A stretch of DNA of 64,000 nucleotides from Dudresnaya verticillata (lineage: Eukaryota): assembly GCA_977862235.1 (NCBI GenBank), contig OZ374565.1, positions 2,604,001 through 2,668,000 of the forward strand, written 5' to 3'. The stretch's first letter is position 1, and every line of letters starts with the position of its first letter. The notes under the pieces were generated by a model, which was not told where the DNA came from, ran no database searches, and saw only the letters and a list, made by a program, of their open reading frames with translations. Below, piece by piece: positions 24,840-56,319 of this stretch. Made by a program: the position numbers and the translations under genes.

Positions 24840-24928
24840 ACATTCGGCCATACTACGCAGACATGCTCCGTATCCCATCCCGAACTGCGAAGATAAGTCT
24901 CGTCAGGCTGGTTTAGTACTGAGGTGAG
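24840..24928 (+). pseudogene. 5S rRNA 5' part (+1..+89), interrupted by 8 tandem copies E-L
   Basis: Same breakpoint GTGAG|TTCAAC. Confidence 0.95.
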
Positions 24929-27900
24929 TTCAACTTTATAACAGGTGACCATATTCTAATATTTGTCGACGTACAATCTACTGTAGTATCACAACAAAGT
25001 TAAACCCCAACTCAAAACAACCTGCACATCTACACCTCCTGTTGGATCCCTTCCATCAGGCACTTGACGTTGTTCTGCACCAGTCGCGCCGCGTGCCTGT
25101 GGAACAGAGCCGCTCGCGAAACACCGCGAGTTACCATGGCCCGAGAAGCCACGGTATCCGCCAACTCTTGCATATACTTGTGCGCCTCCGGGTGCCAGCC
25201 ACCTAGTGTGGTCATCGGCACCGGCACAAGCCTTGCCCCCGGTCCGGCAGCCTGGATGAAGCCACGATAAGTCCGCACCTTGTCAGCGTGGGCGTTCTTC
25301 AGCGTCCCTTGCGGGTTTGTTATGCAGCTGAGAATGCGTTGTTCTGACGACAGTGGATGACTGATTGTGACGTCCAGGTAGTCCGTTCCTCCTTCTGTTC
25401 CAAGCGCCTTGATGTCCGGCCGATCCAAGTGAGCCCCCACAGGGCGGGGCTCCACAATCGGGGTGCGTGTCGCACGTTTCAGATCCGAAGCCAGCAGACG
25501 AACCTGAGAGTCGTGGCGCCACGACCGAGGAGATCCGCTGTTCCGCATGCCGTTCGGACAAATCAGCAGATGGTCGCCGTGAACATCCATCATCTTCTTG
25601 CACCCGGCCCGAGGACACTCCGTGTCGGGTTCCAGCAGTGGAATCCGACAGTAGAATCGAAGCCATACGCGGTAGTCCCGATCCGCAATGTACGTCTTCA
25701 TGCCTGGTGCCGGCTGGCACTTGAGCCAGTCCTTGGCGCCCGGCACGCCAAGGGAAGCTCGGAAAGCTTGCGTCCGCCTGTCCCCGAGCGGCAGCTCGGC
25801 TTGCACTTTCTTCAGAACCAACCGCGTCAAGTCCCGCTGGCGCGGGCACTCGTCGCTGTCGATCTTCTCCAGGTCCAGGGCATCCTCACTATGGCACTTG
25901 GCGCTCCAGTCTTCGTGCGCTTCTACTGCAAAAGGATCGTCAGAAAGAGCAGTGTTCACAGAAGCGGGTAAGATAGAACGCAGTAAGTTGCGGGTCAGTG
26001 AAAGGGACGCCAAAAACGCGCTCGAGTTCATGTCGCCAGCTCCCGAAATACCGATTCCGAAGCTGGGCTCTTTCGTGCGCAGGGGAAGCTGAAGTTCGCG
26101 GAAGGTGTCCCTCGGTAGGACTCCTCCCACGAGCTTGCGCATGCAAGCCTCAATCTTCTGGTCGAAGAGCTCGGCGCCCTTTGCCGTGGCGGATGATGGA
26201 ACTACTCGCAGCAGGTAGTTCAGCCGGCAGACTCCGGCACAGTTGCGGAGTAGAGTGATGGCCACGTGTAGGTCTTCTAGTCCCGAAATTGCGTCCAGCA
26301 GGGGCTGGATGGACTCGACATGGCCATTCACGCTCTCCTCCATGTAGTTCTGCGTTCCAATCGGAGCCTGAAGTACTGTAGTGCCTTCTCCGTAGCTCTG
26401 CCCAAGATCCGACGGGTAGGCAGCGCAGTCTTCTGGGTCGGGTGCAGTAGGCCACCAAACAGTACACTTGTCCATGCGCAGGTGGAAGCCATAGCCCTTA
26501 GCTTCCTCGGAGTCAAAGAAGGACAGAACCTTCCTGAGTACGGCGTGTTTCGCCACGATGACGCCGTCGTCCAGGTAGAACAGTGACAGCAGCAAGTTGT
26601 TCGCCCCCTCCGCTTGCTGATTGCGGCCCGAGCGCCGCAGGTCGGCGGTGAGTTCCTTCAACTGTTTGATCAGTGCCTGCAGCACCAAAGCAAACAGTAA
26701 CGGCCCGAGCGGGTCACCTTGCTGTACACCAGTGACACTCCGCAGTAGAGTGTCACCCATCCACAGGTGCGGGCCCTCAGAGTCATAACAGTATCTGACC
26801 CACGGTAGTAGTTCAGGCATATGTCGGCGGACCTCCTTCATGAATGCTTTGCGGCTGACAAGGTTGAAGGCATTCTTCAAGTCCACTTGTAGCAACCCGT
26901 AGGACTTGTCATGGCCGTGAGACTTCTGCAGCTTCCGGACCGCGTGTACAATGGCTTCTGTGCCGCCCGAGGTTGCGACCCCGAGCTGAAGCGGTTCGAG
27001 GTATGCCTTGGCCTTGGGAGCGACTCTGGTCATGAGCATAGAGCTCACGAGTCGTCGGATTGTCTCTCCTACAGCAATGGGGCGGACACCGCCGGTGCGC
27101 TTCTTCAGAGCCGTGAGAGGAGCGCTGGCAATCCAAGGCGACAGCTCCGCAGGTCCTGCGCCGCTGGCCAGCACGTTGACCATTTTGGTGAGCCCGCCAA
27201 GCAGGCCCGTGTGCTCGTGAGTGGTCGGGACTGAGAGCAGTTCCTGCAGATGCGTCGGTGATAGTCCTGTTCCCCCCGAGGCCGAAGCCCGGGGGAACTT
27301 GGCCACTGCTTTTCGTACTTCGTCGGCTGTGAAAGGCACGAAGTCAGGCATGGTCGGCAGCGGTTCGGACTGGTCAAGCTCGTGGTCCGCGTCGGTTTGC
27401 GGTACGGACTGCGGGTGCTTGTCCTTCATGGACTGTATCACAGAGTCTGTGGCTGGGGCGATTCCATCAGAGTCTAGAGCTGCTGCTGCCTTACTGTAGG
27501 CGCCCTCCTTTGCAAGGCGAAGGGCTCGTGAGGCATTGATACGGCGTTGCTCTTCTGCGGAAGGCGCAGTCTGCTCACGGAATGTCGAGCCCTTCAAGGC
27601 CTCCTGCCATAGGGCGTCGTAATCCTTGAGTCCCCAGCGTCGGATTCGATCGCGGAAGGTGCCGATCGAGGACGCAGAGGTTGACGCGCTGGCCCTTGCA
27701 CTCGCGGCGGGAGGATTGGACAAGACGGCTGCTGGAAAAAGCAGGAATGCAGTGAGCTCTTTGGTGGCTTCCTGAGAGTTGGTTGCGTTCGTAAAAGCCC
27801 ATACCGTCTTGGACAGTGCGTCGCGCACCTCGGCGCGGACGCGAGACGGTATATGTGTGACCATAGGGATATGCGAGCGACAGATGTCTTCGACCGCCGG

Positions 27901-29582
27901 CAGAAGCTGCCCTCCTGGACCCCGCGCAACGGGTGGGGTTTGCGCAGTTGGTACCTCTCGAGTAGCAGGTACCGGTGCAGGAGGCGGCTCCTGGCTGTCC
28001 GGGATTCGTCGCGGGGCTGGCAGGATATCGTCCGCTGGCTCGCCGTCCTCGGGTTGCGTCTCCGTGACCGCGTCCAGAGCAGGAGACTGTGATGGCGCGG
28101 CTACAGTTTCTTCACGGCTCGGTGTCGTCAATTGGTTGGACGGGACGTGGGAGAACGCCGGAGTGCGAGTAGCGGGACATGCGCTGCAATTCTTGTACCG
28201 CATACTGTACATGCCTTCACTGTTCATGCGGGAGCTACAGTGGGTGGGCATGTACTTGTTGTGAGTCACACAGTACCATACTCCATAGTCCAGGAGCTGC
28301 TGCTTGAGAGGCTCGATGTCGGTCCTCGTCGGTGGTCCTCGCCTGCCAGGAACATGCATCTTCCGCAGGTGCATGAGTAGCGCTTCTACAGTAGGCAGTG
28401 AGGACGACTGGCAGCCCAGAGGACAGCTGGTACTGTTTGTCGGGCGGTGTTTTGCCGAAGGCATAAAGCATGGAGAGAGCCATACCTTCGGCATGTCGGG
28501 GTGCTGCTGACCAATCATGGTTACAGCGCTGGGTAAGGTACCTGTAAAGGTCCTCTACAGTAGGTTCCCACGGGGCACAGACCTCCTAACCGGGACGCAA
28601 GCCTGTCGTCCGTCGTCAGTCTGTTCGGGACACCTCCAGAGGGTGCTACAGGTGGCCTTGCTGCGAGATGAGGGCCTCTTCGCAGCGTAGGGCGCGAGAT
28701 CGCGCACTTTGCGCACGAGCTCGCGCAAAAGGGCGCGCGTGTTAGCGTTCGTGCGCGCAGAGTTATCGGACGTTCCCTTCCCTGCCGCAGCTGAGAAGAC
28801 TCTCTTCACTGCGGTCCTGTAACGCGCGGTACTTCTCGTTTGCACAAGCTCTCAATGGGGTCGCAGAACCACCGTTTACCTGTGAGTGCCCACAGGATTT
28901 TTGGCCTCCCCCGAAGGTTCGCTGGCAGGACGTTCGCTCGATCTTAGAAGGGGTGGTTTCAAAACAGGATCCACCAGGCTTAAGCCACGTTACCCCAACT
29001 TCGACGTTGCTTGGCACGTTTCTGCGATGAGCTTGTGGGTCACGAGCCGCCTACCACTCAAGGTCGAGGGTCTTTGGCGATTCCCACACTTGTAGGTCTC
29101 TCGGCACTTCCCGAAGGAAGATTTTACAGGACAAGCCTGGCCTTTACCAATCTGTCAGTTGAAGGGTGTGAAACCCCTCTGTCGACAGTCCACGGCAGCC
29201 TAGACAGAGTCTAGGCTGTGCCGGGTACAAGCAAAACGCGTACAGGGCCAGGGAAAGAAAGATAAGTCAGTGGGGCCCGGGCAAATTTCAAGGTGAGGGA
29301 TCACCTTAAAAGTAAGCGCAAAATAGGAAACGCGTGACCGTCGGCGACGACGGCGGCGGCGACGGCGGCGACGACGACGGCGTCGCGGCGCAGATCGGCG
29401 GCGCGGAAAGAGACAAAAGTAGACCGCGCTCGCCCGCCCGCGAAGGTGAAGGGCTGAAAAACCCCGCACCGACGCGCCGTCGCGCGCTCGAACAGGCGGC
29501 ACCGCCGCCGAAAAGATCGGTGCAGAACTTGCTGAGAAATCTCCGAAACAAAAAATTCGGCAGATCGCGAGGGGTTCTCCGG
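24929..29582 (-). mobile_element. Copy E, full length with the longest 5' end
   Basis: Ends ...AGATCGCGAGGGGTTCTCCGG, then a complex target-derived junction (29583-29612). Confidence 0.96.
25030..28518 (-). CDS. 1162-aa RT/RLE protein, copy E
   Basis: Intact ORF. Confidence 0.96.
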   Translation of the reverse strand: MIGQQHPDMPKVWLSPCFMPSAKHRPTNSTSCPLGCQSSSLPTVEALLMHLRKMHVPGRRGPPTRTDIEPLKQQLLDYGVWYCVTHNKYMPTHCSSRMNSEGMYSMRYKNCSACPATRTPAFSHVPSNQLTTPSREETVAAPSQSPALDAVTETQPEDGEPADDILPAPRRIPDSQEPPPAPVPATREVPTAQTPPVARGPGGQLLPAVEDICRSHIPMVTHIPSRVRAEVRDALSKTVWAFTNATNSQEATKELTAFLLFPAAVLSNPPAASARASASTSASSIGTFRDRIRRWGLKDYDALWQEALKGSTFREQTAPSAEEQRRINASRALRLAKEGAYSKAAAALDSDGIAPATDSVIQSMKDKHPQSVPQTDADHELDQSEPLPTMPDFVPFTADEVRKAVAKFPRASASGGTGLSPTHLQELLSVPTTHEHTGLLGGLTKMVNVLASGAGPAELSPWIASAPLTALKKRTGGVRPIAVGETIRRLVSSMLMTRVAPKAKAYLEPLQLGVATSGGTEAIVHAVRKLQKSHGHDKSYGLLQVDLKNAFNLVSRKAFMKEVRRHMPELLPWVRYCYDSEGPHLWMGDTLLRSVTGVQQGDPLGPLLFALVLQALIKQLKELTADLRRSGRNQQAEGANNLLLSLFYLDDGVIVAKHAVLRKVLSFFDSEEAKGYGFHLRMDKCTVWWPTAPDPEDCAAYPSDLGQSYGEGTTVLQAPIGTQNYMEESVNGHVESIQPLLDAISGLEDLHVAITLLRNCAGVCRLNYLLRVVPSSATAKGAELFDQKIEACMRKLVGGVLPRDTFRELQLPLRTKEPSFGIGISGAGDMNSSAFLASLSLTRNLLRSILPASVNTALSDDPFAVEAHEDWSAKCHSEDALDLEKIDSDECPRQRDLTRLVLKKVQAELPLGDRRTQAFRASLGVPGAKDWLKCQPAPGMKTYIADRDYRVWLRFYCRIPLLEPDTECPRAGCKKMMDVHGDHLLICPNGMRNSGSPRSWRHDSQVRLLASDLKRATRTPIVEPRPVGAHLDRPDIKALGTEGGTDYLDVTISHPLSSEQRILSCITNPQGTLKNAHADKVRTYRGFIQAAGPGARLVPVPMTTLGGWHPEAHKYMQELADTVASRAMVTRGVSRAALFHRHAARLVQNNVKCLMEGIQQEV

Positions 29583-29612
29583 GTACTGAGGTGAGGACTG
29601 AGGTCAGGTGAG

Positions 29613-32600
29613 TTCAACTTTATAACAGGTGACCATATTCTAATATTTGTCGACGTACAATCTACTGTAGTATCACAACAAAGTTAAACCCCAACTCAAA
29701 ACAACCTGCACATCTACACCTCCTGTTGGATCCCTTCCATCAGGCACTTGACGTTGTTCTGCACCAGTCGCGCCGCGTGCCTGTGGAACAGAGCCGCTCG
29801 CGAAACACCGCGAGTTACCATGGCCCGAGAAGCCACGGTATCCGCCAACTCTTGCATATACTTGTGCGCCTCCGGGTGCCAGCCACCTAGTGTGGTCATC
29901 GGCACCGGCACAAGCCTTGCCCCCGGTCCGGCAGCCTGGATGAAGCCACGGTAAGTCCGCACCTTGTCAGCGTGGGCGTTCTTCAGCGTCCCTTGCGGGT
30001 TTGTTATGCAGCTGAGAATGCGTTGTTCTGACGACAGTGGATGACTGATTGTGACGTCCAGGTAGTCCGTTCCTCCTTCTGTTCCAAGCGCCTTGATGTC
30101 CGGCCGATCCAAGTGAGCCCCCACAGGGCGGGGCTCCACAATCGGGGTGCGTGTCGCACGTTTCAGATCCGAAGCCAGCAGACGAACCTGAGAGTCGTGG
30201 CGCCACGACCGAGGAGATCCGCTGTTCCGCATGCCGTTCGGACAAATCAGCAGATGGTCGCCGTGAACATCCATCATCTTCTTGCACCCGGCCCGAGGAC
30301 ACTCCGTGTCGGGTTCCAGCAGTGGAATCCGACAGTAGAATCGAAGCCATACGCGGTAGTCCCGATCCGCAATGTACGTCTTCATGCCTGGTGCCGGCTG
30401 GCACTTGAGCCAGTCCTTGGCGCCCGGCACGCCAAGGGAAGCTCGGAAAGCTTGCGTCCGCCTGTCCCCGAGCGGCAGCTCGGCTTGCACTTTCTTCAGA
30501 ACCAACCGCGTCAAGTCCCGCTGGCGCGGGCACTCGTCGCTGTCGATCTTCTCCAGGTCCAGGGCATCCTCACTATGGCACTTGGCGCTCCAGTCTTCGT
30601 GCGCTTCTACTGCAAAAGGATCGTCAGAAAGAGCAGTGTTCACAGAAGCGGGTAAGATAGAACGCAGTAAGTTGCGGGTCAGTGAAAGGGACGCCAAAAA
30701 CGCGCTCGAGTTCATGTCGCCAGCTCCCGAAATACCGATTCCGAAGCTGGGCTCTTTCGTGCGCAGGGGAAGCTGAAGTTCGCGGAAGGTGTCCCTCGGT
30801 AGGACTCCTCCCACGAGCTTGCGCATGCAAGCCTCAATCTTCTGGTCGAAGAGCTCGGCGCCCTTTGCCGTGGCGGATGATGGAACTACTCGCAGCAGGT
30901 AGTTCAGCCGGCAGACTCCGGCACAGTTGCGGAGTAGAGTGATGGCCACGTGTAGGTCTTCTAGTCCCGAAATTGCGTCCAGCAGGGGCTGGATGGACTC
31001 GACATGGCCATTCACGCTCTCCTCCATGTAGTTCTGCGTTCCAATCGGAGCCTGAAGTACTGTAGTGCCTTCTCCGTAGCTCTGCCCAAGATCCGACGGG
31101 TAGGCAGCGCAGTCTTCTGGGTCGGGTGCAGTAGGCCACCAAACAGTACACTTGTCCATGCGCAGGTGGAAGCCATAGCCCTTAGCTTCCTCGGAGTCAA
31201 AGAAGGACAGAACCTTCCTGAGTACGGCGTGTTTCGCCACGATGACGCCGTCGTCCAGGTAGAACAGTGACAGCAGCAAGTTGTTCGCCCCCTCCGCTTG
31301 CTGATTGCGGCCCGAGCGCCGCAGGTCGGCGGTGAGTTCCTTCAACTGTTTGATCAGTGCCTGCAGCACCAAAGCAAACAGTAACGGCCCGAGCGGGTCA
31401 CCTTGCTGTACACCAGTGACACTCCGCAGTAGAGTGTCACCCATCCACAGGTGCGGGCCCTCAGAGTCATAACAGTATCTGACCCACGGTAGTAGTTCAG
31501 GCATATGTCGGCGGACCTCCTTCATGAATGCTTTGCGGCTGACAAGGTTGAAGGCATTCTTCAAGTCCACTTGTAGCAACCCGTAGGACTTGTCATGGCC
31601 GTGAGACTTCTGCAGCTTCCGGACCGCGTGTACAATGGCTTCTGTGCCGCCCGAGGTTGCGACCCCGAGCTGAAGCGGTTCGAGGTATGCCTTGGCCTTG
31701 GGAGCGACTCTGGTCATGAGCATAGAGCTCACGAGTCGTCGGATTGTCTCTCCTACAGCAATGGGGCGGACACCGCCGGTGCGCTTCTTCAGAGCCGTGA
31801 GAGGAGCGCTGGCAATCCAAGGCGACAGCTCCGCAGGTCCTGCGCCGCTGGCCAGCACGTTGACCATTTTGGTGAGCCCGCCAAGCAGGCCCGTGTGCTC
31901 GTGAGTGGTCGGGACTGAGAGCAGTTCCTGCAGATGCGTCGGTGATAGTCCTGTTCCCCCCGAGGCCGAAGCCCGGGGGAACTTGGCCACTGCTTTTCGT
32001 ACTTCGTCGGCTGTGAAAGGCACGAAGTCAGGCATGGTCGGCAGCGGTTCGGACTGGTCAAGCTCGTGGTCCGCGTCGGTTTGCGGTACGGACTGCGGGT
32101 GCTTGTCCTTCATGGACTGTATCACAGAGTCTGTGGCTGGGGCGATTCCATCAGAGTCTAGAGCTGCTGCTGCCTTACTGTAGGCGCCCTCCTTTGCAAG
32201 GCGAAGGGCTCGTGAGGCATTGATACGGCGTTGCTCTTCTGCGGAAGGCGCAGTCTGCTCACGGAATGTCGAGCCCTTCAAGGCCTCCTGCCATAGGGCG
32301 TCGTAATCCTTGAGTCCCCAGCGTCGGATTCGATCGCGGAAGGTGCCGATCGAGGACGCAGAGGTTGACGCGCTGGCCCTTGCACTCGCGGCGGGAGGAT
32401 TGGACAAGACGGCTGCTGGAAAAAGCAGGAATGCAGTGAGCTCTTTGGTGGCTTCCTGAGAGTTGGTTGCGTTCGTAAAAGCCCATACCGTCTTGGACAG
32501 TGCGTCGCGCACCTCGGCGCGGACGCGAGACGGTATATGTGTGACCATAGGGATATGCGAGCGACAGATGTCTTCGACCGCCGGCAGAAGCTGCCCTCCT

Positions 32601-34252
32601 GGACCCCGCGCAACGGGTGGGGTTTGCGCAGTTGGTACCTCTCGAGTAGCAGGTACCGGTGCAGGAGGCGGCTCCTGGCTGTCCGGGATTCGTCGCGGGG
32701 CTGGCAGGATATCGTCCGCTGGCTCGCCGTCCTCGGGTTGCGTCTCCGTGACCGCGTCCAGAGCAGGAGACTGTGATGGCGCGGCTACAGTTTCTTCACG
32801 GCTCGGTGTCGTCAATTGGTTGGACGGGACGTGGGAGAACGCCGGAGTGCGAGTAGCGGGACATGCGCTGCAATTCTTGTACCGCATACTGTACATGCCT
32901 TCACTGTTCATGCGGGAGCTACAGTGGGTGGGCATGTACTTGTTGTGAGTCACACAGTACCATACTCCATAGTCCAGGAGCTGCTGCTTGAGAGGCTCGA
33001 TGTCGGTCCTCGTCGGTGGTCCTCGCCTGCCAGGAACATGCATCTTCCGCAGGTGCATGAGTAGCGCTTCTACAGTAGGCAGTGAGGACGACTGGCAGCC
33101 CAGAGGACAGCTGGTACTGTTTGTCGGGCGGTGTTTTGCCGAAGGCATAAAGCATGGAGAGAGCCATACCTTCGGCATGTCGGGGTGCTGCTGACCAATC
33201 ATGGTTACAGCGCTGGGTAAGGTACCTGTAAAGGTCCTCTACAGTAGGTTCCCACGGGGCACAGACCTCCTAACCGGGACGCAAGCCTGTCGTCCGTCGT
33301 CAGTCTGTTCGGGACACCTCCAGAGGGTGCTACAGGTGGCCTTGCTGCGAGATGAGGGCCTCTTCGCAGCGTAGGGCGCGAGATCGCGCACTTTGCGCAC
33401 GAGCTCGCGCAAAAGGGCGCGCGTGTTAGCGTTCGTGCGCGCAGAGTTATCGGACGTTCCCTTCCCTGCCGCAGCTGAGAAGACTCTCTTCACTGCGGTC
33501 CTGTAACGCGCGGTACTTCTCGTTTGCACAAGCTCTCAATGGGGTCGCAGAACCACCGTTTACCTGTGAGTGCCCACAGGATTTTTGGCCTCCCCCGAAG
33601 GTTCGCTGGCAGGACGTTCGCTCGATCTTAGAAGGGGTGGTTTCAAAACAGGATCCACCAGGCTTAAGCCACGTTACCCCAACTTCGACGTTGCTTGGCA
33701 CGTTTCTGCGATGAGCTTGTGGGTCACGAGCCGCCTACCACTCAAGGTCGAGGGTCTTTGGCGATTCCCACACTTGTAGGTCTCTCGGCACTTCCCGAAG
33801 GAAGATTTTACAGGACAAGCCTGGCCTTTACCAATCTGTCAGTTGAAGGGTGTGAAACCCCTCTGTCGACAGTCCACGGCAGCCTAGACAGAGTCTAGGC
33901 TGTGCCGGGTACAAGCAAAACGCGTACAGGGCCAGGGAAAGAAAGATAAGTCAGTGGGGCCCGGGCAAATTTCAAGGTGAGGGATCACCTTAAAAGTAAG
34001 CGCAAAATAGGAAACGCGTGACCGTCGGCGACGACGGCGGCGGCGACGGCGGCGACGACGACGGCGTCGCGGCGCAGATCGGCGGCGCGGAAAGAGACAA
34101 AAGTAGACCGCGCTCGCCCGCCCGCGAAGGTGAAGGGCTGAAAAACCCCGCACCGACGCGCCGTCGCGCGCTCGAACAGGCGGCACCGCCGCCGAAAAGA
34201 TCGGTGCAGAACTTGTTGAGATATCTCCGAAACAAAAATTTCGGCAGATCGC
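29613..34252 (-). mobile_element. Copy F, full length
   Basis: Ends AGATCGC, then TG and the TSD (34255-34268). Confidence 0.96.
29714..33202 (-). CDS. 1162-aa RT/RLE protein, copy F
   Basis: Intact ORF. Confidence 0.96.
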   Translation of the reverse strand: MIGQQHPDMPKVWLSPCFMPSAKHRPTNSTSCPLGCQSSSLPTVEALLMHLRKMHVPGRRGPPTRTDIEPLKQQLLDYGVWYCVTHNKYMPTHCSSRMNSEGMYSMRYKNCSACPATRTPAFSHVPSNQLTTPSREETVAAPSQSPALDAVTETQPEDGEPADDILPAPRRIPDSQEPPPAPVPATREVPTAQTPPVARGPGGQLLPAVEDICRSHIPMVTHIPSRVRAEVRDALSKTVWAFTNATNSQEATKELTAFLLFPAAVLSNPPAASARASASTSASSIGTFRDRIRRWGLKDYDALWQEALKGSTFREQTAPSAEEQRRINASRALRLAKEGAYSKAAAALDSDGIAPATDSVIQSMKDKHPQSVPQTDADHELDQSEPLPTMPDFVPFTADEVRKAVAKFPRASASGGTGLSPTHLQELLSVPTTHEHTGLLGGLTKMVNVLASGAGPAELSPWIASAPLTALKKRTGGVRPIAVGETIRRLVSSMLMTRVAPKAKAYLEPLQLGVATSGGTEAIVHAVRKLQKSHGHDKSYGLLQVDLKNAFNLVSRKAFMKEVRRHMPELLPWVRYCYDSEGPHLWMGDTLLRSVTGVQQGDPLGPLLFALVLQALIKQLKELTADLRRSGRNQQAEGANNLLLSLFYLDDGVIVAKHAVLRKVLSFFDSEEAKGYGFHLRMDKCTVWWPTAPDPEDCAAYPSDLGQSYGEGTTVLQAPIGTQNYMEESVNGHVESIQPLLDAISGLEDLHVAITLLRNCAGVCRLNYLLRVVPSSATAKGAELFDQKIEACMRKLVGGVLPRDTFRELQLPLRTKEPSFGIGISGAGDMNSSAFLASLSLTRNLLRSILPASVNTALSDDPFAVEAHEDWSAKCHSEDALDLEKIDSDECPRQRDLTRLVLKKVQAELPLGDRRTQAFRASLGVPGAKDWLKCQPAPGMKTYIADRDYRVWLRFYCRIPLLEPDTECPRAGCKKMMDVHGDHLLICPNGMRNSGSPRSWRHDSQVRLLASDLKRATRTPIVEPRPVGAHLDRPDIKALGTEGGTDYLDVTISHPLSSEQRILSCITNPQGTLKNAHADKVRTYRGFIQAAGPGARLVPVPMTTLGGWHPEAHKYMQELADTVASRAMVTRGVSRAALFHRHAARLVQNNVKCLMEGIQQEV

Positions 34253-34268
34253 TGAGTACTGAGGTGAG

Positions 34269-35284
34269 TTCAACTTTATAACAGGTGACCATATTCTAAT
34301 ATTTGTCGACGTACAATCTACTGTAGTATCACAACAAAGTTAAACCCCAACTCAAAACAACCTGCACATCTACACCTCCTGTTGGATCCCTTCCATCAGG
34401 CACTTGACGTTGTTCTGCACCAGTCGCGCCGCGTGCCTGTGGAACAGAGCCGCTCGCGAAACACCGCGAGTTACCATGGCCCGAGAAGCCACGGTATCCG
34501 CCAACTCTTGCATATACTTGTGCGCCTCCGGGTGCCAGCCACCTAGTGTGGTCATCGGCACCGGCACAAGCCTTGCCCCCGGTCCGGCAGCCTGGATGAA
34601 GCCACGGTAAGTCCGCACCTTGTCAGCGTGGGCGTTCTTCAGCGTCCCTTGCGGGTTTGTTATGCAGCTGAGAATGCGTTGTTCTGACGACAGTGGATGA
34701 CTGATTGTGACGTCCAGGTAGTCCGTTCCTCCTTCTGTTCCAAGCGCCTTGATGTCCGGCCGATCCAAGTGAGCCCCCACCGGGCGGGGCTCCACAATCG
34801 GGGTGCGTGTCGCACGTTTCAGATCCGAAGCCAGCAGACGAACCTGAGAGTCGTGGCGCCACGACCGAGGAGATCCGCTGTTCCGCATGCCGTTCGGACA
34901 AATCAGCAGATGGTCGCCGTGAACATCCATCATCTTCTTGCACCCGGCCCGAGGACACTCCGTGTCGGGTTCCAGCAGTGGAATCCGACAGTAGAATCGA
35001 AGCCATACGCGGTAGTCCCGATCCGCAATGTACGTCTTCATGCCTGGTGCCGGCTGGCACTTGAGCCAGTCCTTGGCGCCCGGCACGCCAAGGGAAGCTC
35101 GGAAAGCTTGCGTCCGCCTGTCCCCGAGCGGCAGCTCGGCTTGCACTTTCTTCAGAACCAACCGCGTCAAGTCCCGCTGGCGCGGGCACTCGTCGCTGTC
35201 GATCTTCTCCAGGTCCAGGGCATCCTCACTATGGCACTTGGCGCTCCAGTCTTCGTGCGCTTCTACTGCAAAAGGATCGTCAGA
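34269..35284 (-). mobile_element. Copy G, 5'-truncated (~1.0 kb)
   Basis: Stops at GGATCGTCAGA; short GATCGTCA duplication, then the TSD (35290-35303). Confidence 0.95.
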
Positions 35285-35303
35285 TCGTCAGTACTGAGGT
35301 GAG

Positions 35304-44616: not shown

Positions 44617-44646
44617 GTACTGAGGTGAGGACTGAGGTCAGGTGAG

Positions 44647-47600: not shown

Positions 47601-49286
47601 GATGTCTTCGACCGCCGGCAGAAGCTGCCCTCCTGGACCCCGCGCAACGGGTGGGGTTTGCGCAGTTGGTACCTCTCGAGTAGCAGGTACCGGTGCAGGA
47701 GGCGGCTCCTGGCTGTCCGGGATTCGTCGCGGGGCTGGCAGGATATCGTCCGCTGGCTCGCCGTCCTCGGGTTGCGTCTCCGTGACCGCGTCCAGAGCAG
47801 GAGACTGTGATGGCGCGGCTACAGTTTCTTCACGGCTCGGTGTCGTCAATTGGTTGGACGGGACGTGGGAGAACGCCGGAGTGCGAGTAGCGGGACATGC
47901 GCTGCAATTCTTGTACCGCATACTGTACATGCCTTCACTGTTCATGCGGGAGCTACAGTGGGTGGGCATGTACTTGTTGTGAGTCACATAGTACCATACT
48001 CCATAGTCCAGGAGCTGCTGCTTGAGAGGCTCGATGTCGGTCCTCGTCGGTGGTCCTCGCCTGCCAGGAACATGCATCTTCCGCAGGTGCATGAGTAGCG
48101 CTTCTACAGTAGGCAGTGAGGACGACTGGCAGCCCAGAGGACAGCTGGTACTGTTTGTCGGGCGGTGTTTTGCCGAAGGCATAAAGCATGGAGAGAGCCA
48201 TACCTTCGGCATGTCGGGGTGCTGCTGACCAATCATGGTTACAGCGCTGGGTAAGGTACCTGTAAAGGTCCTCTACAGTAGGTTCCCACGGGGCACAGGC
48301 CTCCTAACCGGGACGCAAGCCTGTCGTCCGTCGTCAGTCTGTTCGGGACACCTCCAGAGGGTGCTACAGGTGGCCTTGCTGCGAGATGAGGGCCTCTTCG
48401 CAGCGTAGGGCGCGAGATCGCGCACTTTGCGCACGAGCTCGCGCAAAAGGGCGCGCGTGTTAGCGTTCGTGCGCGCAGAGTTATCGGACGTTCCCTTCCC
48501 TGCCGCAGCTGAGAAGACTCTCTTCACTGCGGTCCTGTAACGCGCGGTACTTCTCGTTTGCACAAGCTCTCAATGGGGTCGCAGAACCACCGTTTACCTG
48601 TGAGTGCCCACAGGATTTTTGGCCTCCCCCGAAGGTTCGCTGGCAGGACGTTCGCTCGATCTTAGAAGGGGTGGTTTCAAAACAGGATCCACCAGGCTTA
48701 AGCCACGTTACCCCAACTTCGACGTTGCTTGGCACGTTTCTGCGATGAGCTTGTGGGTCACGAGCCGCCTACCACTCAAGGTCGAGGGTCTTTGGCGATT
48801 CCCACACTTGTAGGTCTCTCGGCACTTCCCGAAGGAAGATTTTACAGGACAAGCCTGGCCTTTACCAATCTGTCAGTTGAAGGGTGTGAAACCCCTCTGT
48901 CGACAGTCCACGGCAGCCTAGACAGAGTCTAGGCTGTGCCGGGTACAAGCAAAACGCGTACAGGGCCAGGGAAAGAAAGATAAGTCAGTGGGGCCCGGGC
49001 AAATTTCAAGGTGAGGGATCACCTTAAAAGTAAGCGCAAAATAGGAAACGCGTGACCGTCGGCGACGACGGCGGCGGCGACGGCGGCGACGACGACGGCG
49101 TCGCGGCGCAGATCGGCGGCGCGGAAAGAGACAAAAGTAGACCGCGCTCGCCCGCCCGCGAAGGTGAAGGGCTGAAAAACCCCGCACCGACGCGCCGTCG
49201 CGCGCTCGAACAGGCGGCACCGCCGCCGAAAAGATCGGTGCAGAACTTGTTGAGATATCCGCGAAACAAAAATTTCGGCAGATCGC
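44647..49286 (-). mobile_element. Copy J, full length
   Basis: Ends AGATCGC; short TSD CTGAGGTGAG (49286-49295). Confidence 0.96.
44748..48236 (-). CDS. 1162-aa RT/RLE protein, copy J (C83Y variant)
   Basis: Intact ORF; WYYVTH instead of WYCVTH. Confidence 0.95.
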   Translation of the reverse strand: MIGQQHPDMPKVWLSPCFMPSAKHRPTNSTSCPLGCQSSSLPTVEALLMHLRKMHVPGRRGPPTRTDIEPLKQQLLDYGVWYYVTHNKYMPTHCSSRMNSEGMYSMRYKNCSACPATRTPAFSHVPSNQLTTPSREETVAAPSQSPALDAVTETQPEDGEPADDILPAPRRIPDSQEPPPAPVPATREVPTAQTPPVARGPGGQLLPAVEDICRSHIPMVTHIPSRVRAEVRDALSKTVWAFTNATNSQEATKELTAFLLFPAAVLSNPPAASARASASTSASSIGTFRDRIRRWGLKDYDALWQEALKGSTFREQTAPSAEEQRRINASRALRLAKEGAYSKAAAALDSDGIAPATDSVIQSMKDKHPQSVPQTDADHELDQSEPLPTMPDFVPFTADEVRKAVAKFPRASASGGTGLSPTHLQELLSVPTTHEHTGLLGGLTKMVNVLASGAGPAELSPWIASAPLTALKKRTGGVRPIAVGETIRRLVSSMLMTRVAPKAKAYLEPLQLGVATSGGTEAIVHAVRKLQKSHGHDKSYGLLQVDLKNAFNLVSRKAFMKEVRRHMPELLPWVRYCYDSEGPHLWMGDTLLRSVTGVQQGDPLGPLLFALVLQALIKQLKELTADLRRSGRNQQAEGANNLLLSLFYLDDGVIVAKHAVLRKVLSFFDSEEAKGYGFHLRMDKCTVWWPTAPDPEDCAAYPSDLGQSYGEGTTVLQAPIGTQNYMEESVNGHVESIQPLLDAISGLEDLHVAITLLRNCAGVCRLNYLLRVVPSSATAKGAELFDQKIEACMRKLVGGVLPRDTFRELQLPLRTKEPSFGIGISGAGDMNSSAFLASLSLTRNLLRSILPASVNTALSDDPFAVEAHEDWSAKCHSEDALDLEKIDSDECPRQRDLTRLVLKKVQAELPLGDRRTQAFRASLGVPGAKDWLKCQPAPGMKTYIADRDYRVWLRFYCRIPLLEPDTECPRAGCKKMMDVHGDHLLICPNGMRNSGSPRSWRHDSQVRLLASDLKRATRTPIVEPRPVGAHLDRPDIKALGTEGGTDYLDVTISHPLSSEQRILSCITNPQGTLKNAHADKVRTYRGFIQAAGPGARLVPVPMTTLGGWHPEAHKYMQELADTVASRAMVTRGVSRAALFHRHAARLVQNNVKCLMEGIQQEV

Positions 49287-49295
49287 TGAGGTGAG

Positions 49296-51618
49296 TTCAA
49301 CTTTATAACAGGTGACCATATTCTAATATTTGTCGACGTACAATCTACTGTAGTATCACAACAAAGTTAAACCCCAACTCAAAACAACCTGCACATCTAC
49401 ACCTCCTGTTGGATCCCTTCCATCAGGCACTTGACGTTGTTCTGCACCAGTCGCGCCGCGTGCCTGTGGAACAGAGCCGCTCGCGAAACACCGCGAGTTA
49501 CCATGGCCCGAGAAGCCACGGTATCCGCCAACTCTTGCATATACTTGTGCGCCTCCGGGTGCCAGCCACCTAGTGTGGTCATCGGCACCGGCACAAGCCT
49601 TGCCCCCGGTCCGGCAGCCTGGATGAAGCCACGGTAAGTCCGCACCTTGTCAGCGTGGGCGTTCTTCAGCGTCCCTTGCGGGTTTGTTATGCAGCTGAGA
49701 ATGCGTTGTTCTGACGACAGTGGATGACTGATTGTGACGTCCAGGTAGTCCGTTCCTCCTTCTGTTCCAAGCGCCTTGATGTCCGGCCGATCCAAGTGAG
49801 CCCCCACAGGGCGGGGCTCCACAATCGGGGTGCGTGTCGCACGTTTCAGATCCGAAGCCAGCAGACGAACCTGAGAGTCGTGGCGCCACGACCGAGGAGA
49901 TCCGCTGTTCCGCATGCCGTTCGGACAAATCAGCAGATGGTCGCCGTGAACATCCATCATCTTCTTGCACCCGGCCCGAGGACACTCCGTGTCGGGTTCC
50001 AGCAGTGGAATCCGACAGTAGAATCGAAGCCATACGCGGTAGTCCCGATCCGCAATGTACGTCTTCATGCCTGGTGCCGGCTGGCACTTGAGCCAGTCCT
50101 TGGCGCCCGGCACGCCAAGGGAAGCTCGGAAAGCTTGCGTCCGCCTGTCCCCGAGCGGCAGCTCGGCTTGCACTTTCTTCAGAACCAACCGCGTCAAGTC
50201 CCGCTGGCGCGGGCACTCGTCGCTGTCGATCTTCTCCAGGTCCAGGGCATCCTCACTATGGCACTTGGCGCTCCAGTCTTCGTGCGCTTCTACTGCAAAA
50301 GGATCGTCAGAAAGAGCAGTGTTCACAGAAGCGGGTAAGATAGAACGCAGTAAGTTGCGGGTCAGTGAAAGGGACGCCAAAAACGCGCTCGAGTTCATGT
50401 CGCCAGCTCCCGAAATACCGATTCCGAAGCTGGGCTCTTTCGTGCGCAGGGGAAGCTGAAGTTCGCGGAAGGTGTCCCTCGGTAGGACTCCTCCCACGAG
50501 CTTGCGCATGCAAGCCTCAATCTTCTGGTCGAAGAGCTCGGCGCCCTTTGCCGTGGCGGATGATGGAACTACTCGCAGCAGGTAGTTCAGCCGGCAGACT
50601 CCGGCACAGTTGCGGAGTAGAGTGATGGCCACGTGTAGGTCTTCTAGTCCCGAAATTGCGTCCAGCAGGGGCTGGATGGACTCGACATGGCCATTCACGC
50701 TCTCCTCCATGTAGTTCTGCGTTCCAATCGGAGCCTGAAGTACTGTAGTGCCTTCTCCGTAGCTCTGCCCAAGATCCGACGGGTAGGCAGCGCAGTCTTC
50801 TGGGTCGGGTGCAGTAGGCCACCAAACAGTACACTTGTCCATTCGCAGGTGGAAGCCATAGCCCTTAGCTTCCTCGGAGTCAAAGAAGGACAGAACCTTC
50901 CTGAGTACGGCGTGTTTCGCCACGATGACGCCGTCGTCCAGGTAGAACAGTGACAGCAGCAAGTTGTTCGCCCCCTCCGCTTGCTGATTGCGGCCCGGGC
51001 GCCGCAGGTCGGCGGTGAGTTCCTTCAACTGTTTGATCAGTGCCTGCAGCACCAAAGCAAACAGTAACGGCCCGAGCGGGTCACCTTGCTGTACACCAGT
51101 GACACTCCGCAGTAGAGTGTCACCCATCCACAGGTGCGGGCCCTCAGAGTCATAACAGTATCTGACCCACGGTAGTAGTTCAGGCATATGTCGGCGGACC
51201 TCCTTCATGAATGCTTTGCGGCTGACAAGGTTGAAGGCATTCTTCAAGTCCACTTGTAGCAACCCGTAGGACTTGTCATGGCCGTGAGACTTCTGCAGCT
51301 TCCGGACCGCGTGTACAATGGCTTCTGTGCCGCCCGAGGTTGCGACCCCGAGCTGAAGCGGTTCGAGGTATGCCTTGGCCTTGGGAGCGACTCTGGTCAT
51401 GAGCATAGAGCTCACGAGTCGTCGGATTGTCTCTCCTACAGCAATGGGGCGGACACCGCCGGTGCGCTTCTTCAGAGCCGTGAGAGGAGCGCTGGCAATC
51501 CAAGGCGACAGCTCCGCAGGTCCTGCGCCGCTGGCCAGCACGTTGACCATTTTGGTGAGCCCGCCAAGCAGGCCCGTGTGCTCGTGAGTGGTCGGGACTG
51601 AGAGCAGTTCCTGCAGAT
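49296..51618 (-). mobile_element. Copy K, 5'-truncated (~2.3 kb; retains most of RT plus RLE, residual ORF 49397-51550)
   Basis: Stops at CTGCAGAT, then CGCTGAGGTGAG. Confidence 0.95.
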
Positions 51619-51630
51619 CGCTGAGGTGAG

Positions 51631-54600
51631 TTCAACTTTATAACAGGTGACCATATTCTAATATTTGTCGACGTACAATCTACTGTAGTATCACAACAAA
51701 GTTAAACCCCAACTCAAAACAACTTGCACATCTACACCTCCTGTTGGATCCCTTCCATCAGGCACTTGACGTTGTTCTGCACCAGTCGCGCCGCGTGCCT
51801 GTGGAACAGAGCCGCTCGCGAAACACCGCGAGTTACCATGGCCCGAGAAGCCACGGTATCCGCCAACTCTTGCATATACTTGTGCGCCTCCGGGTGCCAG
51901 CCACCTAGTGTGGTCATCGGCACCGGCACAAGCCTTGCCCCCGGTCCGGCAGCCTGGATGAAGCCACGGTAAGTCCGCACCTTGTCAGCGTGGGCGTTCT
52001 TCAGCGTCCCTTGCGGGTTTGTTATGCAGCTGAGAATGCGTTGTTCTGACGACAGTGGATGACTGATTGTGACGTCCAGGTAGTCCGTTCCTCCTTCTGT
52101 TCCAAGCGCCTTGATGTCCGGCCGATCCAAGTGAGCCCCCACCGGGCGGGGCTCCACAATCGGGGTGCGTGTCGCACGTTTCAGATCCGAAGCCAGCAGA
52201 CGAACCTGAGAGTCGTGGCGCCACGACCGAGGAGATCCGCTGTTCCGCATGCCGTTCGGACAAATCAGCAGATGGTCGCCGTGAACATCCATCATCTTCT
52301 TGCACCCGGCCCGAGGACACTCCGTGTCGGGTTCCAGCAGTGGAATCCGACAGTAGAATCGAAGCCATACGCGGTAGTCCCGATCCGCAATGTACGTCTT
52401 CATGCCTGGTGCCGGCTGGCACTTGAGCCAGTCCTTGGCGCCCGGCACGCCAAGGGAAGCTCGGAAAGCTTGCGTCCGCCTGTCCCCGAGCGGCAGCTCG
52501 GCTTGCACTTTCTTCAGAACCAACCGCGTCAAGTCCCGCTGGCGCGGGCACTCGTCGCTGTCGATCTTCTCCAGGTCCAGGGCATCCTCACTATGGCACT
52601 TGGCGCTCCAGTCTTCGTGCGCTTCTACTGCAAAAGGATCGTCAGAAAGAGCAGTGTTCACAGAAGCGGGTAAGATAGAACGCAGTAAGTTGCGGGTCAG
52701 TGAAAGGGACGCCAAAAACGCGCTCGAGTTCATGTCGCCAGCTCCCGAAATACCGATTCCGAAGCTGGGCTCTTTCGTGCGCAGGGGAAGCTGAAGTTCG
52801 CGGAAGGTGTCCCTCGGTAGGACTCCTCCCACGAGCTTGCGCATGCAAGCCTCAATCTTCTGGTCGAAGAGCTCGGCGCCCTTTGCCGTGGCGGATGATG
52901 GAACTACTCGCAGCAGGTAGTTCAGCCGGCAGACTCCGGCACAGTTGCGGAGTAGAGTGATGGCCACGTGTAGGTCTTCTAGTCCCGAAATTGCGTCCAG
53001 CAGGGGCTGGATGGACTCGACATGGCCATTCACGCTCTCCTCCATGTAGTTCTGCGTTCCAATCGGAGCCTGAAGTACTGTAGTGCCTTCTCCGTAGCTC
53101 TGCCCAAGATCCGACGGGTAGGCAGCGCAGTCTTCTGGGTCGGGTGCAGTAGGCCACCAAACAGTACACTTGTCCATGCGCAGGTGGAAGCCATAGCCCT
53201 TAGCTTCCTCGGAGTCAAAGAAGGACAGAACCTTCCTGAGTACGGCGTGTTTCGCCACGATGACGCCGTCGTCCAGGTAGAACAGTGACAGCAGCAAGTT
53301 GTTCGCCCCCTCCGCTTGCTGATTGCGGCCCGAGCGCCGCAGGTCGGCGGTGAGTTCCTTCAACTGTTTGATCAGTGCCTGCAGCACCAAAGCAAACAGT
53401 AACGGCCCGAGCGGGTCACCTTGCTGTACACCAGTGACACTCCGCAGTAGAGTGTCACCCATCCACAGGTGCGGGCCCTCAGAGTCATAACAGTATCTGA
53501 CCCACGGTAGTAGTTCAGGCATATGTCGGCGGACCTCCTTCATGAATGCTTTGCGGCTGACAAGGTTGAAGGCATTCTTCAAGTCCACTTGTAGCAACCC
53601 GTAGGACTTGTCATGGCCGTGAGACTTCTGCAGCTTCCGGACCGCGTGTACAATCGCTTCTGTGCCGCCCGAGGTTGCGACCCCGAGCTGAAGCGGTTCG
53701 AGGTATGCCTTGGCCTTGGGAGCGACTCTGGTCATGAGCATAGAGCTCACGAGTCGTCGGATTGTCTCTCCTACAGCAATGGGGCGGACACCGCCGGTGC
53801 GCTTCTTCAGAGCCGTGAGAGGAGCGCTGGCAATCCAAGGCGACAGCTCCGCAGGTCCTGCGCCGCTGGCCAGCACGTTGACCATTTTGGTGAGCCCGCC
53901 AAGCAGGCCCGTGTGCTCGTGAGTGGTCGGGACTGAGAGCAGTTCCTGCAGATGCGTCGGTGATAGTCCTGTTCCCCCCGAGGCCGAAGCCCGGGGGAAC
54001 TTGGCCACTGCTTTTCGTACTTCGTCGGCTGTGAAAGGCACGAAGTCAGGCATGGTCGGCAGCGGTTCGGACTGGTCAAGCTCGTGGTCCGCGTCGGTTT
54101 GCGGTACGGACTGCGGGTGCTTGTCCTTCATGGACTGTATCACAGAGTCTGTGGCTGGGGCGATTCCATCAGAGTCTAGAGCTGCTGCTGCCTTACTGTA
54201 GGCGCCCTCCTTTGCAAGGCGAAGGGCTCGTGAGGCATTGATACGGCGTTGCTCTTCTGCGGAAGGCGCAGTCTGCTCACGGAATGTCGAGCCCTTCAAG
54301 GCCTCCTGCCATAGGGCGTCGTAATCCTTGAGTCCCCAGCGTCGGATTCGATCGCGGAAGGTGCCGATCGAGGACGCAGAGGTTGACGCGCTGGCCCTTG
54401 CACTCGCCGCGGGAGGATTGGACAAGACGGCTGCTGGAAAAAGCAGGAATGCAGTGAGCTCTTTGGTGGCTTCCTGAGAGTTGGTTGCGTTCGTAAAAGC
54501 CCATACCGTCTTGGACAGTGCGTCGCGCACCTCGGCGCGGACGCGAGACGGTATATGTGTGACCATAGGGATATGCGAGCGACAGATGTCTTCGACCGCC

Positions 54601-56268
54601 GGCAGAAGCTGCCCTCCTGGACCCCGCGCAACGGGTGGGGTTTGCGCAGTTGGTACCTCTCGAGTAGCAGGTACCGGTGCAGGAGGCGGCTCCTGGCTGT
54701 CCGGGATTCGTCGCGGGGCTGGCAGGATATCGTCCGCTGGCTCGCCGTCCTCGGGTTGCGTCTCCGTGACCGCGTCCAGAGCAGGAGACTGTGATGGCGC
54801 GGCTACAGTTTCTCACGGCTCGGTGTCGTCAATTGGTTGGACGGGACGTGGGAGAACGCCGGAGTGCGAGTAGCGGGACATGCGCTGCAATTCTTGTACC
54901 GCATACTGTACATGCCTTCACTGTTCATGCGGGAGCTACAGTGGGTGGGCATGTACTTGTTGTGAGTCACACAGTACCATACTCCATAGTCCAGGAGCTG
55001 CTGCTTGAGAGGCTCGATGTCGGTCCTCGTCGGTGGTCCTCGCCTGCCAGGAACATGCATCTTCCGCAGGTGCATGAGTAGCGCTTCTACAGTAGGCAGT
55101 GAGGACGACTGGCAGCCCAGAGGACAGCTGGTACTGTTTGTCGGGCGGTGTTTTGCCGAAGGCATAAAGCATGGAGAGAGCCATACCTTCGGCATGTCGG
55201 GGTGCTGCTGACCAATCATGGTTACAGCGCTGGGTAAGGTACCTGTAAAGGTCCTCTACAGTAGGTTCCCACGGGGCACAGACCTCCTAACCGGGACGCA
55301 AGCCTGTCGTCCGTCGTCAGTCTGTTCGGGACACCTCCAGAGGGTGCTACAGGTGGCCTTGCTGCGAGATGAGGGCCTCTTCGCAGCGTAGGGCGCGAGA
55401 TCGCGCACTTTGCGCACGAGCTCGCGCAAAAGGGCGCGCGTGTTAGCGTTCGTGCGCGCAGAGTTATCGGACGTTCCCTTCCCTGCCGCAGCTGAGAAGA
55501 CTCTCTTCACTGCGGTCCTGTAACGCGCGGTACTTCTCGTTTGCACAAGCTCTCAATGGGGTCGCAGAACCACCGTTTACCTGTGAGTGCCCACAGGATT
55601 TTTGGCCTCCCCCGAAGGTTCGCTGGCAGGACGTTCGCTCGATCTTAGAAGGGGTGGTTTCAAAACAGGATCCACCAGGCTTAAGCCACGTTACCCCAAC
55701 TTCGACGTTGCTTGGCACGTTTCTGCGATGAGCTTGTGGGTCACGAGCCGCCTACCACTCAAGGTCGAGGGTCTTTGGCGATTCCCACACTTGTAGGTCT
55801 CTCGGCACTTCCCGAAGGAAGATTTTACAGGACAAGCCTGGCCTTTACCAATCTGTCAGTTGAAGGGTGTGAAACCCCTCTGTCGACAGTCCACGGCAGC
55901 CTAGACAGAGTCTAGGCTGTGCCGGGTACAAGCAAAACGCGTACAGGGCCAGGGAAAGAAAGATAAGTCAGTGGGGCCCGGGCAAATTTCAAGGTGAGGG
56001 ATCACCTTAAAAGTAAGCGCAAAATAGGAAACGCGTGACCGTCGGCGACGACGGCGGCGGCGACGGCGGCGACGACGACGGCGTCGCGGCGCAGATCGGC
56101 GGCGCGGAAAGAGACAAAAGTAGACCGCGCTCGCCCGCCCGCGAAGGTGAAGGGCTGAAAAACCCCGCACCGACGCGCCGTCGCGCGCTCGAACAGGCGG
56201 CACCGCCGCCGAAAAGATCGGTGCAGAACTTGCTGAGAAATCTCCGAAACAAAAAATTCGGCAGATCG
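51631..56268 (-). mobile_element. Copy L, full length
   Basis: 5' junction identical to copy H; followed by the 3' part of 5S. Confidence 0.96.
51732..55219 (-). pseudogene. RT/RLE ORF of copy L split by a 1-bp deletion near 54813 (138 aa + 944 aa)
   Basis: CAGTTTCTCACGG here versus CAGTTTCTTCACGG in other copies; could be a sequencing error. Confidence 0.75.
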
Positions 56269-56274
56269 GTACTG

Positions 56275-56319
56275 AGTACTGAGGTGAGGGATCACTCTGG
56301 AATCGCCAGTGCCGAATGT
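56275..56319 (+). pseudogene. 5S rRNA 3' part (+76..+120) closing the E-L stack
   Basis: TSD + GGATCAC...GCCGAATGT + terminator. Confidence 0.95.

What the first reader, a model, noticed from the sequence alone, without database searches (positions are those of the whole stretch)
24840..56319. Eight head-to-tail elements (~31 kb) stacked within a single 5S gene
Seen: copies E-L are separated only by 10-30 bp of target-derived sequence. Several distinct 5' junction types and two different truncation points occur. Two-copy stacks also occur (C-D, and A-B, which may extend beyond the window). Inference: the TSD regenerates a usable target, so insertion is iterative and inserted units act as sinks. 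This would let the element amplify while sparing intact 5S genes: six contiguous genes at 9067-15231 are untouched.
Basis: partly seen in the sequence, partly recalled or inferred. Interest (0 to 1): 0.7.

Follow-up and report, generated by a model that had tools for sequence, protein, structure and literature searches.

The report
Retrotransposon stack inside a 5S gene
Eight copies of one jumping gene lie head to tail inside a single 5S ribosomal RNA gene, likely piled up by re-insertion into the short target copy each insertion leaves plus later recombination, as already known for fly R1 elements; the element itself appears to be an undescribed 5S-targeting type that also carries a copy of the 5S promoter boxes.

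Summary
The stack is real in the assembly: eight head-to-tail copies (24929-56268, 31.3 kb) of a 4.64-kb non-LTR retrotransposon with reverse transcriptase and restriction-like endonuclease (CRE-like), antisense in one 5S gene, nicked at nt 89|90 with a 13-14-bp duplication. All 13 visible 3' ends use that site. Re-insertion is supported (six distinct junctions, private truncations, 5 of 9 internal spacers equal the full duplication) but is not the whole story: two junctions occur twice letter for letter (E/I, H/L), haplotypes are mosaic, and neighbours are closer than chance, so recombination also built it. Stacking by target re-use, then unequal exchange, is published for Drosophila R1; tandem Utopia copies are published too. 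'Sparing' is not shown: intact units are identical and probably re-amplified. What looks new is the element: known 5S-gene-targeting elements found in my searches are Mutsu and Dada-5S, not restriction-like endonuclease elements.

The parts
24840..24928 (+). 5' part (nt 1-89) of the interrupted 5S rRNA gene; its last 13 nt (24916-24928) are the left copy of the target-site duplication
24929..29567 (-). Copy E, full length, intact ORF (25030-28554, 1174 codons stop to stop); identical to copy N over 4508 bp
29568..29612 (.). 45-nt complex junction (7-nt longer 5' end, non-target bases, one full and two partial target copies); identical to the junction after I
29613..34251 (-). Copy F, full length, intact ORF; 17-nt junction follows
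34269..35284 (-). Copy G, 5'-truncated at 1016 bp; junction with short duplication and full 14-nt target match
35304..39942 (-). Copy H, full length, intact ORF; 20-nt junction identical to that after L
39634..39679 (+). 5S internal-control-region mimic in the 5' UTR of H (exact 5S nt 51-60 at 39634-39643 and nt 83-96 at 39666-39679, same spacing as in the gene, antisense to the element); the 14-mer is present in 9 of 9 copies that reach it and the region is invariant among them
39963..44601 (-). Copy I, full length, intact ORF; H-type body, one J-type allele, E-type junction (mosaic)
44647..49285 (-). Copy J, full length, intact ORF; 10-nt junction
49296..51618 (-). Copy K, truncated at 2323 bp, flanked by an 18-bp direct repeat (49278-49295, 51613-51630) made of the 5' end of J plus 10 nt of target
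51631..56268 (-). Copy L, full length, identical to H but for a 1-bp frameshifting deletion
56276..56320 (+). Right copy of the 13-bp duplication (56276-56288) and 3' part (nt 90-121) of the interrupted 5S gene
9067..15232 (+). Six contiguous intact 5S genes in identical 1209-bp units
16321..22542 (.). 5S gene holding the two-copy stack C (full) and D (1431 bp), a more diverged lineage
57409..58315 (.). 5S gene holding single truncated copy M (759 bp) whose 5' junction has two full target duplications one base apart

Best explanation
A 4.64-kb non-LTR retrotransposon with reverse transcriptase and restriction-like endonuclease motifs sits eight times head to tail, antisense, at nt 89|90 of one 5S gene, and the stack was likely built in two ways: new copies likely inserted into the 13-14-bp target duplication left by earlier copies, and unequal exchange or gene conversion likely duplicated and mixed some copies afterwards. 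Shown: one fixed 3' junction, the duplication, six distinct and two repeated 5' junctions, mosaic haplotypes, purifying selection on the ORF. Inferred: target-primed reverse transcription from a nick after nt 89 with a second nick 13-14 nt away; re-use mainly of the duplication on the element's 5' side, which keeps all of box C and the 3' part of the gene (about 60%; the other side is not excluded); up to six independent insertions and at least two recombination-borne copies. An occupied unit would stay one target among many (a passive sink); the runs of intact genes are likely kept up by array turnover and selection, not by the element avoiding them.
For: 13 of 13 visible 3' ends follow 5S sequence ending at nt 89; 5 of 9 internal spacers match the target for 13-14 nt, the length of the terminal duplications of D, L and M, the other 4 for 7-10 nt. 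Five different truncation points (B, D, G, K, M), each with its own junction. K is flanked by an 18-bp repeat holding bases of J's 5' end, as expected if K went into J's junction. ORF: 46 synonymous vs 17 non-synonymous variants, pN/pS 0.12; CCHC-RHD-E-RPD-D motif conserved in 31-37 of 37 aligned proteins per residue, the H-D/N position varying; best fold matches are R2 proteins. Recombination: 45-nt junction identical in E and I although their bodies differ at 5 sites; H and L identical with the same junction; E = N; 224 of 1653 informative site pairs fail the four-gamete test (6 of 45 among E-N); copies of one unit differ by 0.19% vs 0.81% between units, permutation p = 0.0016. Precedent: R1 tandem arrays, dimer then unequal exchange.
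Against: No reads confirm the order or number of copies (run X1 barely touches the element). K can equally be a duplicate of a J-type copy shortened through 6 bp of microhomology (K shares one private allele with J, differs at 2 sites). The 6 incompatible pairs among E-N all involve one site, so one conversion or one recurrent change explains them. Repeated junctions could also be copied from RNAs that include the junction. E, M and N, all next to the 5S 5' part, are nearly identical, which fits re-use of the other side or whole-unit duplication. Even six independent insertions in one unit are unlikely under one equal target per unit (P = 0.0026), so unit age, extra targets or more recombination must be added.
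Confidence: 0.7

Rival explanations
1. Insertion only, with inserted units as preferred sinks: all eight copies are separate retrotranspositions, and repeated junctions were copied from read-through RNAs that carry the junction at their 5' end.
For: Strong overdispersion (variance/mean 4.5; P = 5e-5 under one target per unit); melanogaster-type R1 RNAs are inferred to carry target sequence at the 5' end (PMC2718515 passages); L could be an RT copy of H with one error.
Against: I joins an H-type body to an E-type junction; four-gamete failures and within-unit clustering; a model without preference but with n+1 targets gives P(max >= 8) = 0.03 and P(>= 7 empty) = 0.16; the same paper reads identical rearranged junctions between tandem R1s as amplification of one event.
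Confidence: 0.13
2. Recombination nearly alone: one or two original insertions, expanded by unequal exchange, with truncations and junction variety made later by microhomology deletions and slippage.
For: Repeated junctions, 0.19% divergence within units, K explicable as a deletion.
Against: Six distinct junctions in 8 copies; all 13 3' ends exact while 5' ends vary; truncated D, G and M end in a clean 13-14-nt duplication, which random deletion would not give; unequal exchange needs a dimer to start.
Confidence: 0.08
3. Concatemers made in one event: the reverse transcriptase jumps from the 5' end of one RNA to the 3' end of another that carries read-through target sequence, so spacers mimic duplications.
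For: Spacers vary (7, 10, 13, 14 nt) and hold extra bases; end-to-end jumping by R2 reverse transcriptase is mentioned in PMC13708176 (passage).
Against: 5 of 9 internal spacers end where the terminal duplications end, a boundary set by the second nick rather than by an RNA end; 31 kb in one event is implausible.
Confidence: 0.05
4. Assembly artefact: reads from different 5S units were chained through the near-identical elements.
For: Copies are 98.6-100% alike and units identical; H/L and E/N are all but identical; no supporting reads were available.
Against: Element-to-element junctions are short unique strings that any read would span, so head-to-tail neighbours exist whatever the exact count; every stack copy has its own combination of haplotype and junction.
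Confidence: 0.04

Closest known systems
Ancestral-type R1 tandem arrays in Drosophila 28S rDNA (PMC2718515; bioRxiv 10.1101/158386; passages read)
   Same: Head-to-tail copies at one rDNA site separated by a ~14-bp duplication; exact 3' and variable 5' junctions; formation attributed to insertion into the 5' duplication, then unequal exchange; identical rearranged junctions read as amplification.
   Different: R1 has an apurinic-type endonuclease and targets 28S; this element has one ORF with a C-terminal restriction-like endonuclease and lies antisense in the 5S gene. R1 averages at most 2-3 per inserted unit in that survey.
CRE clade (CRE1/2, SLACS, CZAR, MoTeR, FoTeR, Cnl1; PMC12857005 passages)
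   Same: Single ORF, N-terminal C2H2-like finger, RT, then CCHC-RHD-E-RPD-D motif in the same order; a relative's cluster holds proteins named '132 kDa protein' (that this label derives from SLACS is recalled).
   Different: Those target spliced-leader genes (recalled) or telomeric repeats; spacers within the CCHC motif are slightly longer here; no 5S target found in my searches.
Mutsu (zebrafish; PMC5340908 passages) and Dada-5S (PMC8869645 passages)
   Same: Sequence-specific insertion into 5S rRNA genes of a tandem array.
   Different: Mutsu has two ORFs, about 5.5 kb, and inserts ~20 nt from the 5S 5' end; Dada-5S is a DNA transposon. This element has one ORF and inserts at nt 89|90.
Utopia-1_NVit (PMC4640811 passages and Introduction)
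   Same: Restriction-like endonuclease element occasionally inserted in tandem in a small-RNA gene.
   Different: Targets U2 snRNA genes; arthropod Utopia is reported to make no duplication.
Cassandra, Ajax and SINE3 5S promoter mimics (PMC10853983, PMC10886601 passages)
   Same: Only the internal control boxes of 5S are kept, with divergent sequence between and around them.
   Different: Those are non-autonomous and use the boxes to make their own RNA; here the boxes lie ~260-310 nt inside the 5' UTR of an autonomous element, point against its transcription, and box C is also its insertion site.

Membership tests
RLE-type non-LTR retrotransposon | Single ORF with RT domain | tested here: met
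   1174-codon ORF; PF00078 E 1.2e-16
RLE-type non-LTR retrotransposon | C-terminal CCHC finger and PD-(D/E)xK-type endonuclease | tested here: met
   C968-C973-H983-C987, RHD 1001-1003, E1023, RPD 1033-1035, D1049, K1080 conserved in alignment A1; whole-chain fold closest to R2. Activity untested.
RLE-type non-LTR retrotransposon | TPRT signature: fixed 3' junction, variable or truncated 5' ends, duplication | tested here: met
   13 of 13 3' ends fixed; 5 truncations; 13-14-bp duplication
CRE clade | Endonuclease motif order as in SLACS/CRE/MoTeR | tested here: met
   Order matches the pattern quoted in PMC12857005; spacers X4, X9, X13 exceed the quoted ranges, and the pattern is not unique to CRE
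CRE clade | RT phylogeny groups it with named CRE elements | not testable with these tools
   No named CRE reference among the hits; only the '132 kDa protein' label in a 29%-identical relative's cluster. YLDD active site as a CRE trait is recalled.
R2 clade | 28S target and N-terminal Myb domain | tested here: not met
   Target is 5S; no Myb domain by Pfam; N-terminal region poorly modelled, 16-17% identity to R2 in fold alignments
Mutsu / Tx1 | Two ORFs, insertion ~20 nt from the 5S 5' end | tested here: not met
   One long ORF, site at nt 89|90 (vs)
R1-type tandem array (works like) | Copies at the normal site separated by the duplication | tested here: met
   5 of 9 internal spacers hold the full 13-14 nt, 4 hold 7-10 nt
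R1-type tandem array (works like) | New copies enter the duplication at the 5' end of the resident copy | tested here: inconclusive
   K's 18-bp chimeric repeat favours it, but a deletion origin of K and re-use of the other side are not excluded
5S type-1 Pol III promoter mimic (Cassandra/Ajax-like) | Boxes A, IE, C at gene spacing with divergent flanks | tested here: met
   10/15, 4/6, 14/18 vs 9/49 and 6/24 in flanks; 24/33 reached by 0 of 5000 shuffles; box limits are recalled Xenopus numbering
5S type-1 Pol III promoter mimic (Cassandra/Ajax-like) | TFIIIA binding and Pol III transcription | not testable with these tools
   Needs binding or transcription data

The most novel reading that the evidence does not exclude
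An undescribed CRE-like element parasitises the 5S promoter twice: it cuts inside box C and carries its own box A + box C mimic about 270-310 bp from its 5' end, so that every full-length insertion brings a fresh TFIIIA/Pol III landing site next to the regenerated target. That would keep occupied units competent or even preferred for re-insertion, or drive an antisense Pol III RNA that regulates the element: a self-made sink in a Pol III gene array.
Probability: 0.2. Interest if true: 0.85.

Novelty: new variant of a known kind. Interest (0 to 1): 0.52.

Why it matters
Stacking by target re-use is known, so the finding as written is a large example of a published process. The element is the better result. 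If confirmed it adds a natural specificity (a conserved 5S box C site, 13-14-bp duplication) to the restriction-like endonuclease retrotransposons now mined for RNA-templated gene insertion, from a clade little studied biochemically. The window also hands over a natural substrate series (intact site, 14-, 10- and 7-nt junctions, and an unused 7+7-nt copy in the UTR) that makes its target requirements directly testable, and the UTR promoter mimic suggests a link between targeting or regulation and the Pol III machinery.

Tried and rejected
No whole genome is held, so genome-wide occupancy and off-target copies were not examined. One public run was listed, share 0.07, no RNA holder listed; its contigs cover scattered short pieces and bridge no junction: uninformative. 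First metagenome scan: 0 of 18 candidates confirmed. Second scan kept 80 of 477 confirmed loci; none shows a 5S gene (Rfam 0 hits in 20 of the 80; blastn best E 0.29 and nhmmer none in all 80), best box score 20 of 33; most are short contigs and at most ~45% identical, so this does not bound the family. L003 and L004 are followed by (GA)n; L033, L039, L046 are one family with unlike 3' flanks. No Rfam ribozyme in the 5' UTR (1 weak unrelated hit). Single-sequence fold of the N-terminal 226 residues failed (pLDDT 31). Cluster look-ups gave names in 2 of 20 clusters; atlas gave only unnamed RVT_1 clusters. Bacterial promoter scan is not applicable. Simple 2 x (E-F-G-H) duplication rejected: G and K differ in truncation, junction and alleles, F and J differ at 7 sites. 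My first reading of the 14-nt UTR match as an RNA guide was dropped in favour of a promoter mimic once a second exact block appeared on the same diagonal. Four look-ups in earlier findings returned nothing on this element. Fell et al. 2025 is not held, and neither Repbase nor that paper's supplements could be seen; either may already list such an element.

Full report
Setting. The window is a 5S rDNA tandem array with a 1209-bp unit. Rfam lists 11 5S matches: 7 complete genes and 4 interrupted ones. The 7 intact units and the spacers behind interrupted genes are identical letter for letter. Fourteen copies (A-N) of one element interrupt the array, all on the minus strand, antisense to 5S.

The element. 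Full copies are 4639 bp (four have a few more bases at the 5' end), with a 101-bp 3' UTR without poly(A), a 1174-codon ORF (1162 aa from the first Met) and a 5' UTR of about 1 kb. Pfam finds RVT_1 only. The C-terminus has C968-C973-H983-C987, RHD, E1023, RPD, D1049 and K1080, conserved across a 37-protein alignment, in the order quoted for SLACS, CRE and MoTeR (PMC12857005, passages). The model (pLDDT 82) matches R2 proteins best. Variation among copies is 46 synonymous to 17 non-synonymous, pN/pS 0.12, so the lineages were shaped by retrotransposition. The nearest proteins are unnamed, 53-55% and then about 40% identical over most of the length. I call it CRE-like; a tree with named references could not be made.

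Observation. The stack is as described: E-L fill 24929-56268 between 5S nt 89 and nt 90. Five of 8 copies have the whole ORF, L is frameshifted, G and K are truncated. All 13 visible 3' ends follow 5S sequence ending at nt 89; four follow the whole 89 nt, and the nine internal ones match 13, 14, 7, 14, 14, 14, 7, 10 and 10 nt. D, L and M show the terminal duplication of 13-14 bp.

Evidence for re-insertion. The 8 junctions are 6 distinct strings. Five truncation points in the window each have their own junction, and D, G and M end in a clean duplication. Five of 9 internal spacers stop where terminal duplications stop. K is bracketed by an 18-bp repeat that includes bases of J's 5' end: the expected trace of insertion into J's junction, though a deletion through 6 bp of microhomology gives the same letters. 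M has two full duplications one base apart, an aborted second round or a slipped second strand.

Evidence for recombination. The 45-nt rearranged junction is identical after E and I; H and L are identical but for one base and share a 20-nt junction; E equals N over 4508 bp. I has an H-type body, a J-type allele and an E-type junction. Four-gamete failures: 224 of 1653 informative pairs overall, 6 of 45 among E-N, the latter all through one site. Copies in one unit differ by 0.19%, between units by 0.81% (p = 0.0016).

Sink and sparing. Counts per unit are 2,0,0,0,0,0,0,2,0,8,1,1 (first and last are lower bounds). One equal target per unit gives P(max >= 8) = 5e-5 and P(>= 7 empty) = 0.003; n+1 targets give 0.03 and 0.16; counting six independent events gives 0.0026 and 0.11. 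The window was chosen for its stack and units are not independent, so these are indicative. Overdispersion is real but needs no preference: old units collect copies, recombination adds more, and intact units are re-amplified. That last step is inference from their identity.

Precedent. Stage and Eickbush report R1 tandem arrays in seven Drosophila species, separated by the 14-bp duplication and formed by insertion into the 5' duplication, and read identical rearranged junctions as amplification of one event (PMC2718515, passages). McGurk and Barbash describe double insertion followed by unequal exchange (10.1101/158386, passages). Utopia-1_NVit is occasionally tandem in U2 genes, and targeting multicopy genes as a way to limit harm is stated as the standard view (PMC4640811, passages and Introduction). 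The stacking mechanism is therefore known.

What looks new. Ten searches (listings seen) turned up as 5S-gene-targeting elements only Mutsu (two ORFs, ~20 nt from the 5' end; PMC5340908, passages) and Dada-5S (PMC8869645, passages); a 2024 review lists Mutsu and Rex3 and otherwise spacer insertions (PMC10946416, passages). The largest RLE survey used animal assemblies (PMC13586686, PMC13580325, passages) and could not be read; Repbase was not available. Passages of PMC11202950 and PMC13708176 added no such element. Absence from print is thus limited to these searches. Distant relatives in 80 metagenome loci show no 5S neighbour.

Side finding. The 5' UTR holds an exact 14-bp match to 5S nt 83-96, centred on the nick (8 of 3000 shuffles reach 14 anywhere in 5S, 1 across the nick), and an exact 10-bp match to nt 51-60 on the same ungapped diagonal. 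With recalled box limits the match is 10/15 (A), 4/6 (IE), 14/18 (C), against 9/49 and 6/24 in the flanks; 24 of 33 is reached by 0 of 5000 shuffles. The test was set up after the match was seen. The region is invariant in the 9 copies that reach it, across both lineages. This is the pattern of Cassandra and Ajax (PMC10853983, PMC10886601, passages), but antisense and in an autonomous element. None of the 9 UTR sites carries an insertion, so 7+7 bases around the nick seem not to suffice, which fits recognition further into the 5S 3' part (inference, low power). A TFIIIA site is the likeliest reading; whether it matters for stacking is open.

Verdict. Observation confirmed; interpretation partly supported and already described for R1; the element and its promoter mimic are the reasons to follow up. 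New variant of a known kind, interest 0.52.

Noticed in passing
window 39634-39679 (copy H; same place in A, C, E, F, I, J, L, N): 5S box A and box C mimic at exact gene spacing in the element's 5' UTR, antisense to the element; the box C copy sits in an 11-bp RNA hairpin.
   Followed up: yes
window 7998-8001: Copy B joins the spacer at unit position 141 through a 4-base overlap; the 3' part of its 5S gene and the terminator are missing.
   Followed up: partly
window 58257-58283: Copy M's 5' junction has two full 13-bp duplications separated by one base.
   Followed up: partly
window 23707-29436 and 58271-64000: Identical over 5730 bp, including copy E versus N: probable whole-unit duplication or two recent copies of one master.
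   Followed up: partly
window 1-22497 versus 24929-64000: Two element lineages about 1.2% apart are spatially sorted (A, C, D left; E-N right; B in between), while host units are identical.
   Followed up: partly
window 39913-39942 (5' end of H): The first ~30 nt of the RNA fold into a hairpin; by eye the alleles of A, C and J keep it. Its first bases weakly resemble the 5S 3' end and terminator (E 0.5, not significant).
   Followed up: no
window 9067-9187: The 5S sequence recalls red-algal 5S rRNA (from memory, untested; host not determined).
   Followed up: no
L003:5713-5966, L004:6147-6478; L033, L039, L046: Distant relatives end near (GA)n tracts, or belong to one family with unlike 3' flanks, so target choice varies in this group.
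   Followed up: partly
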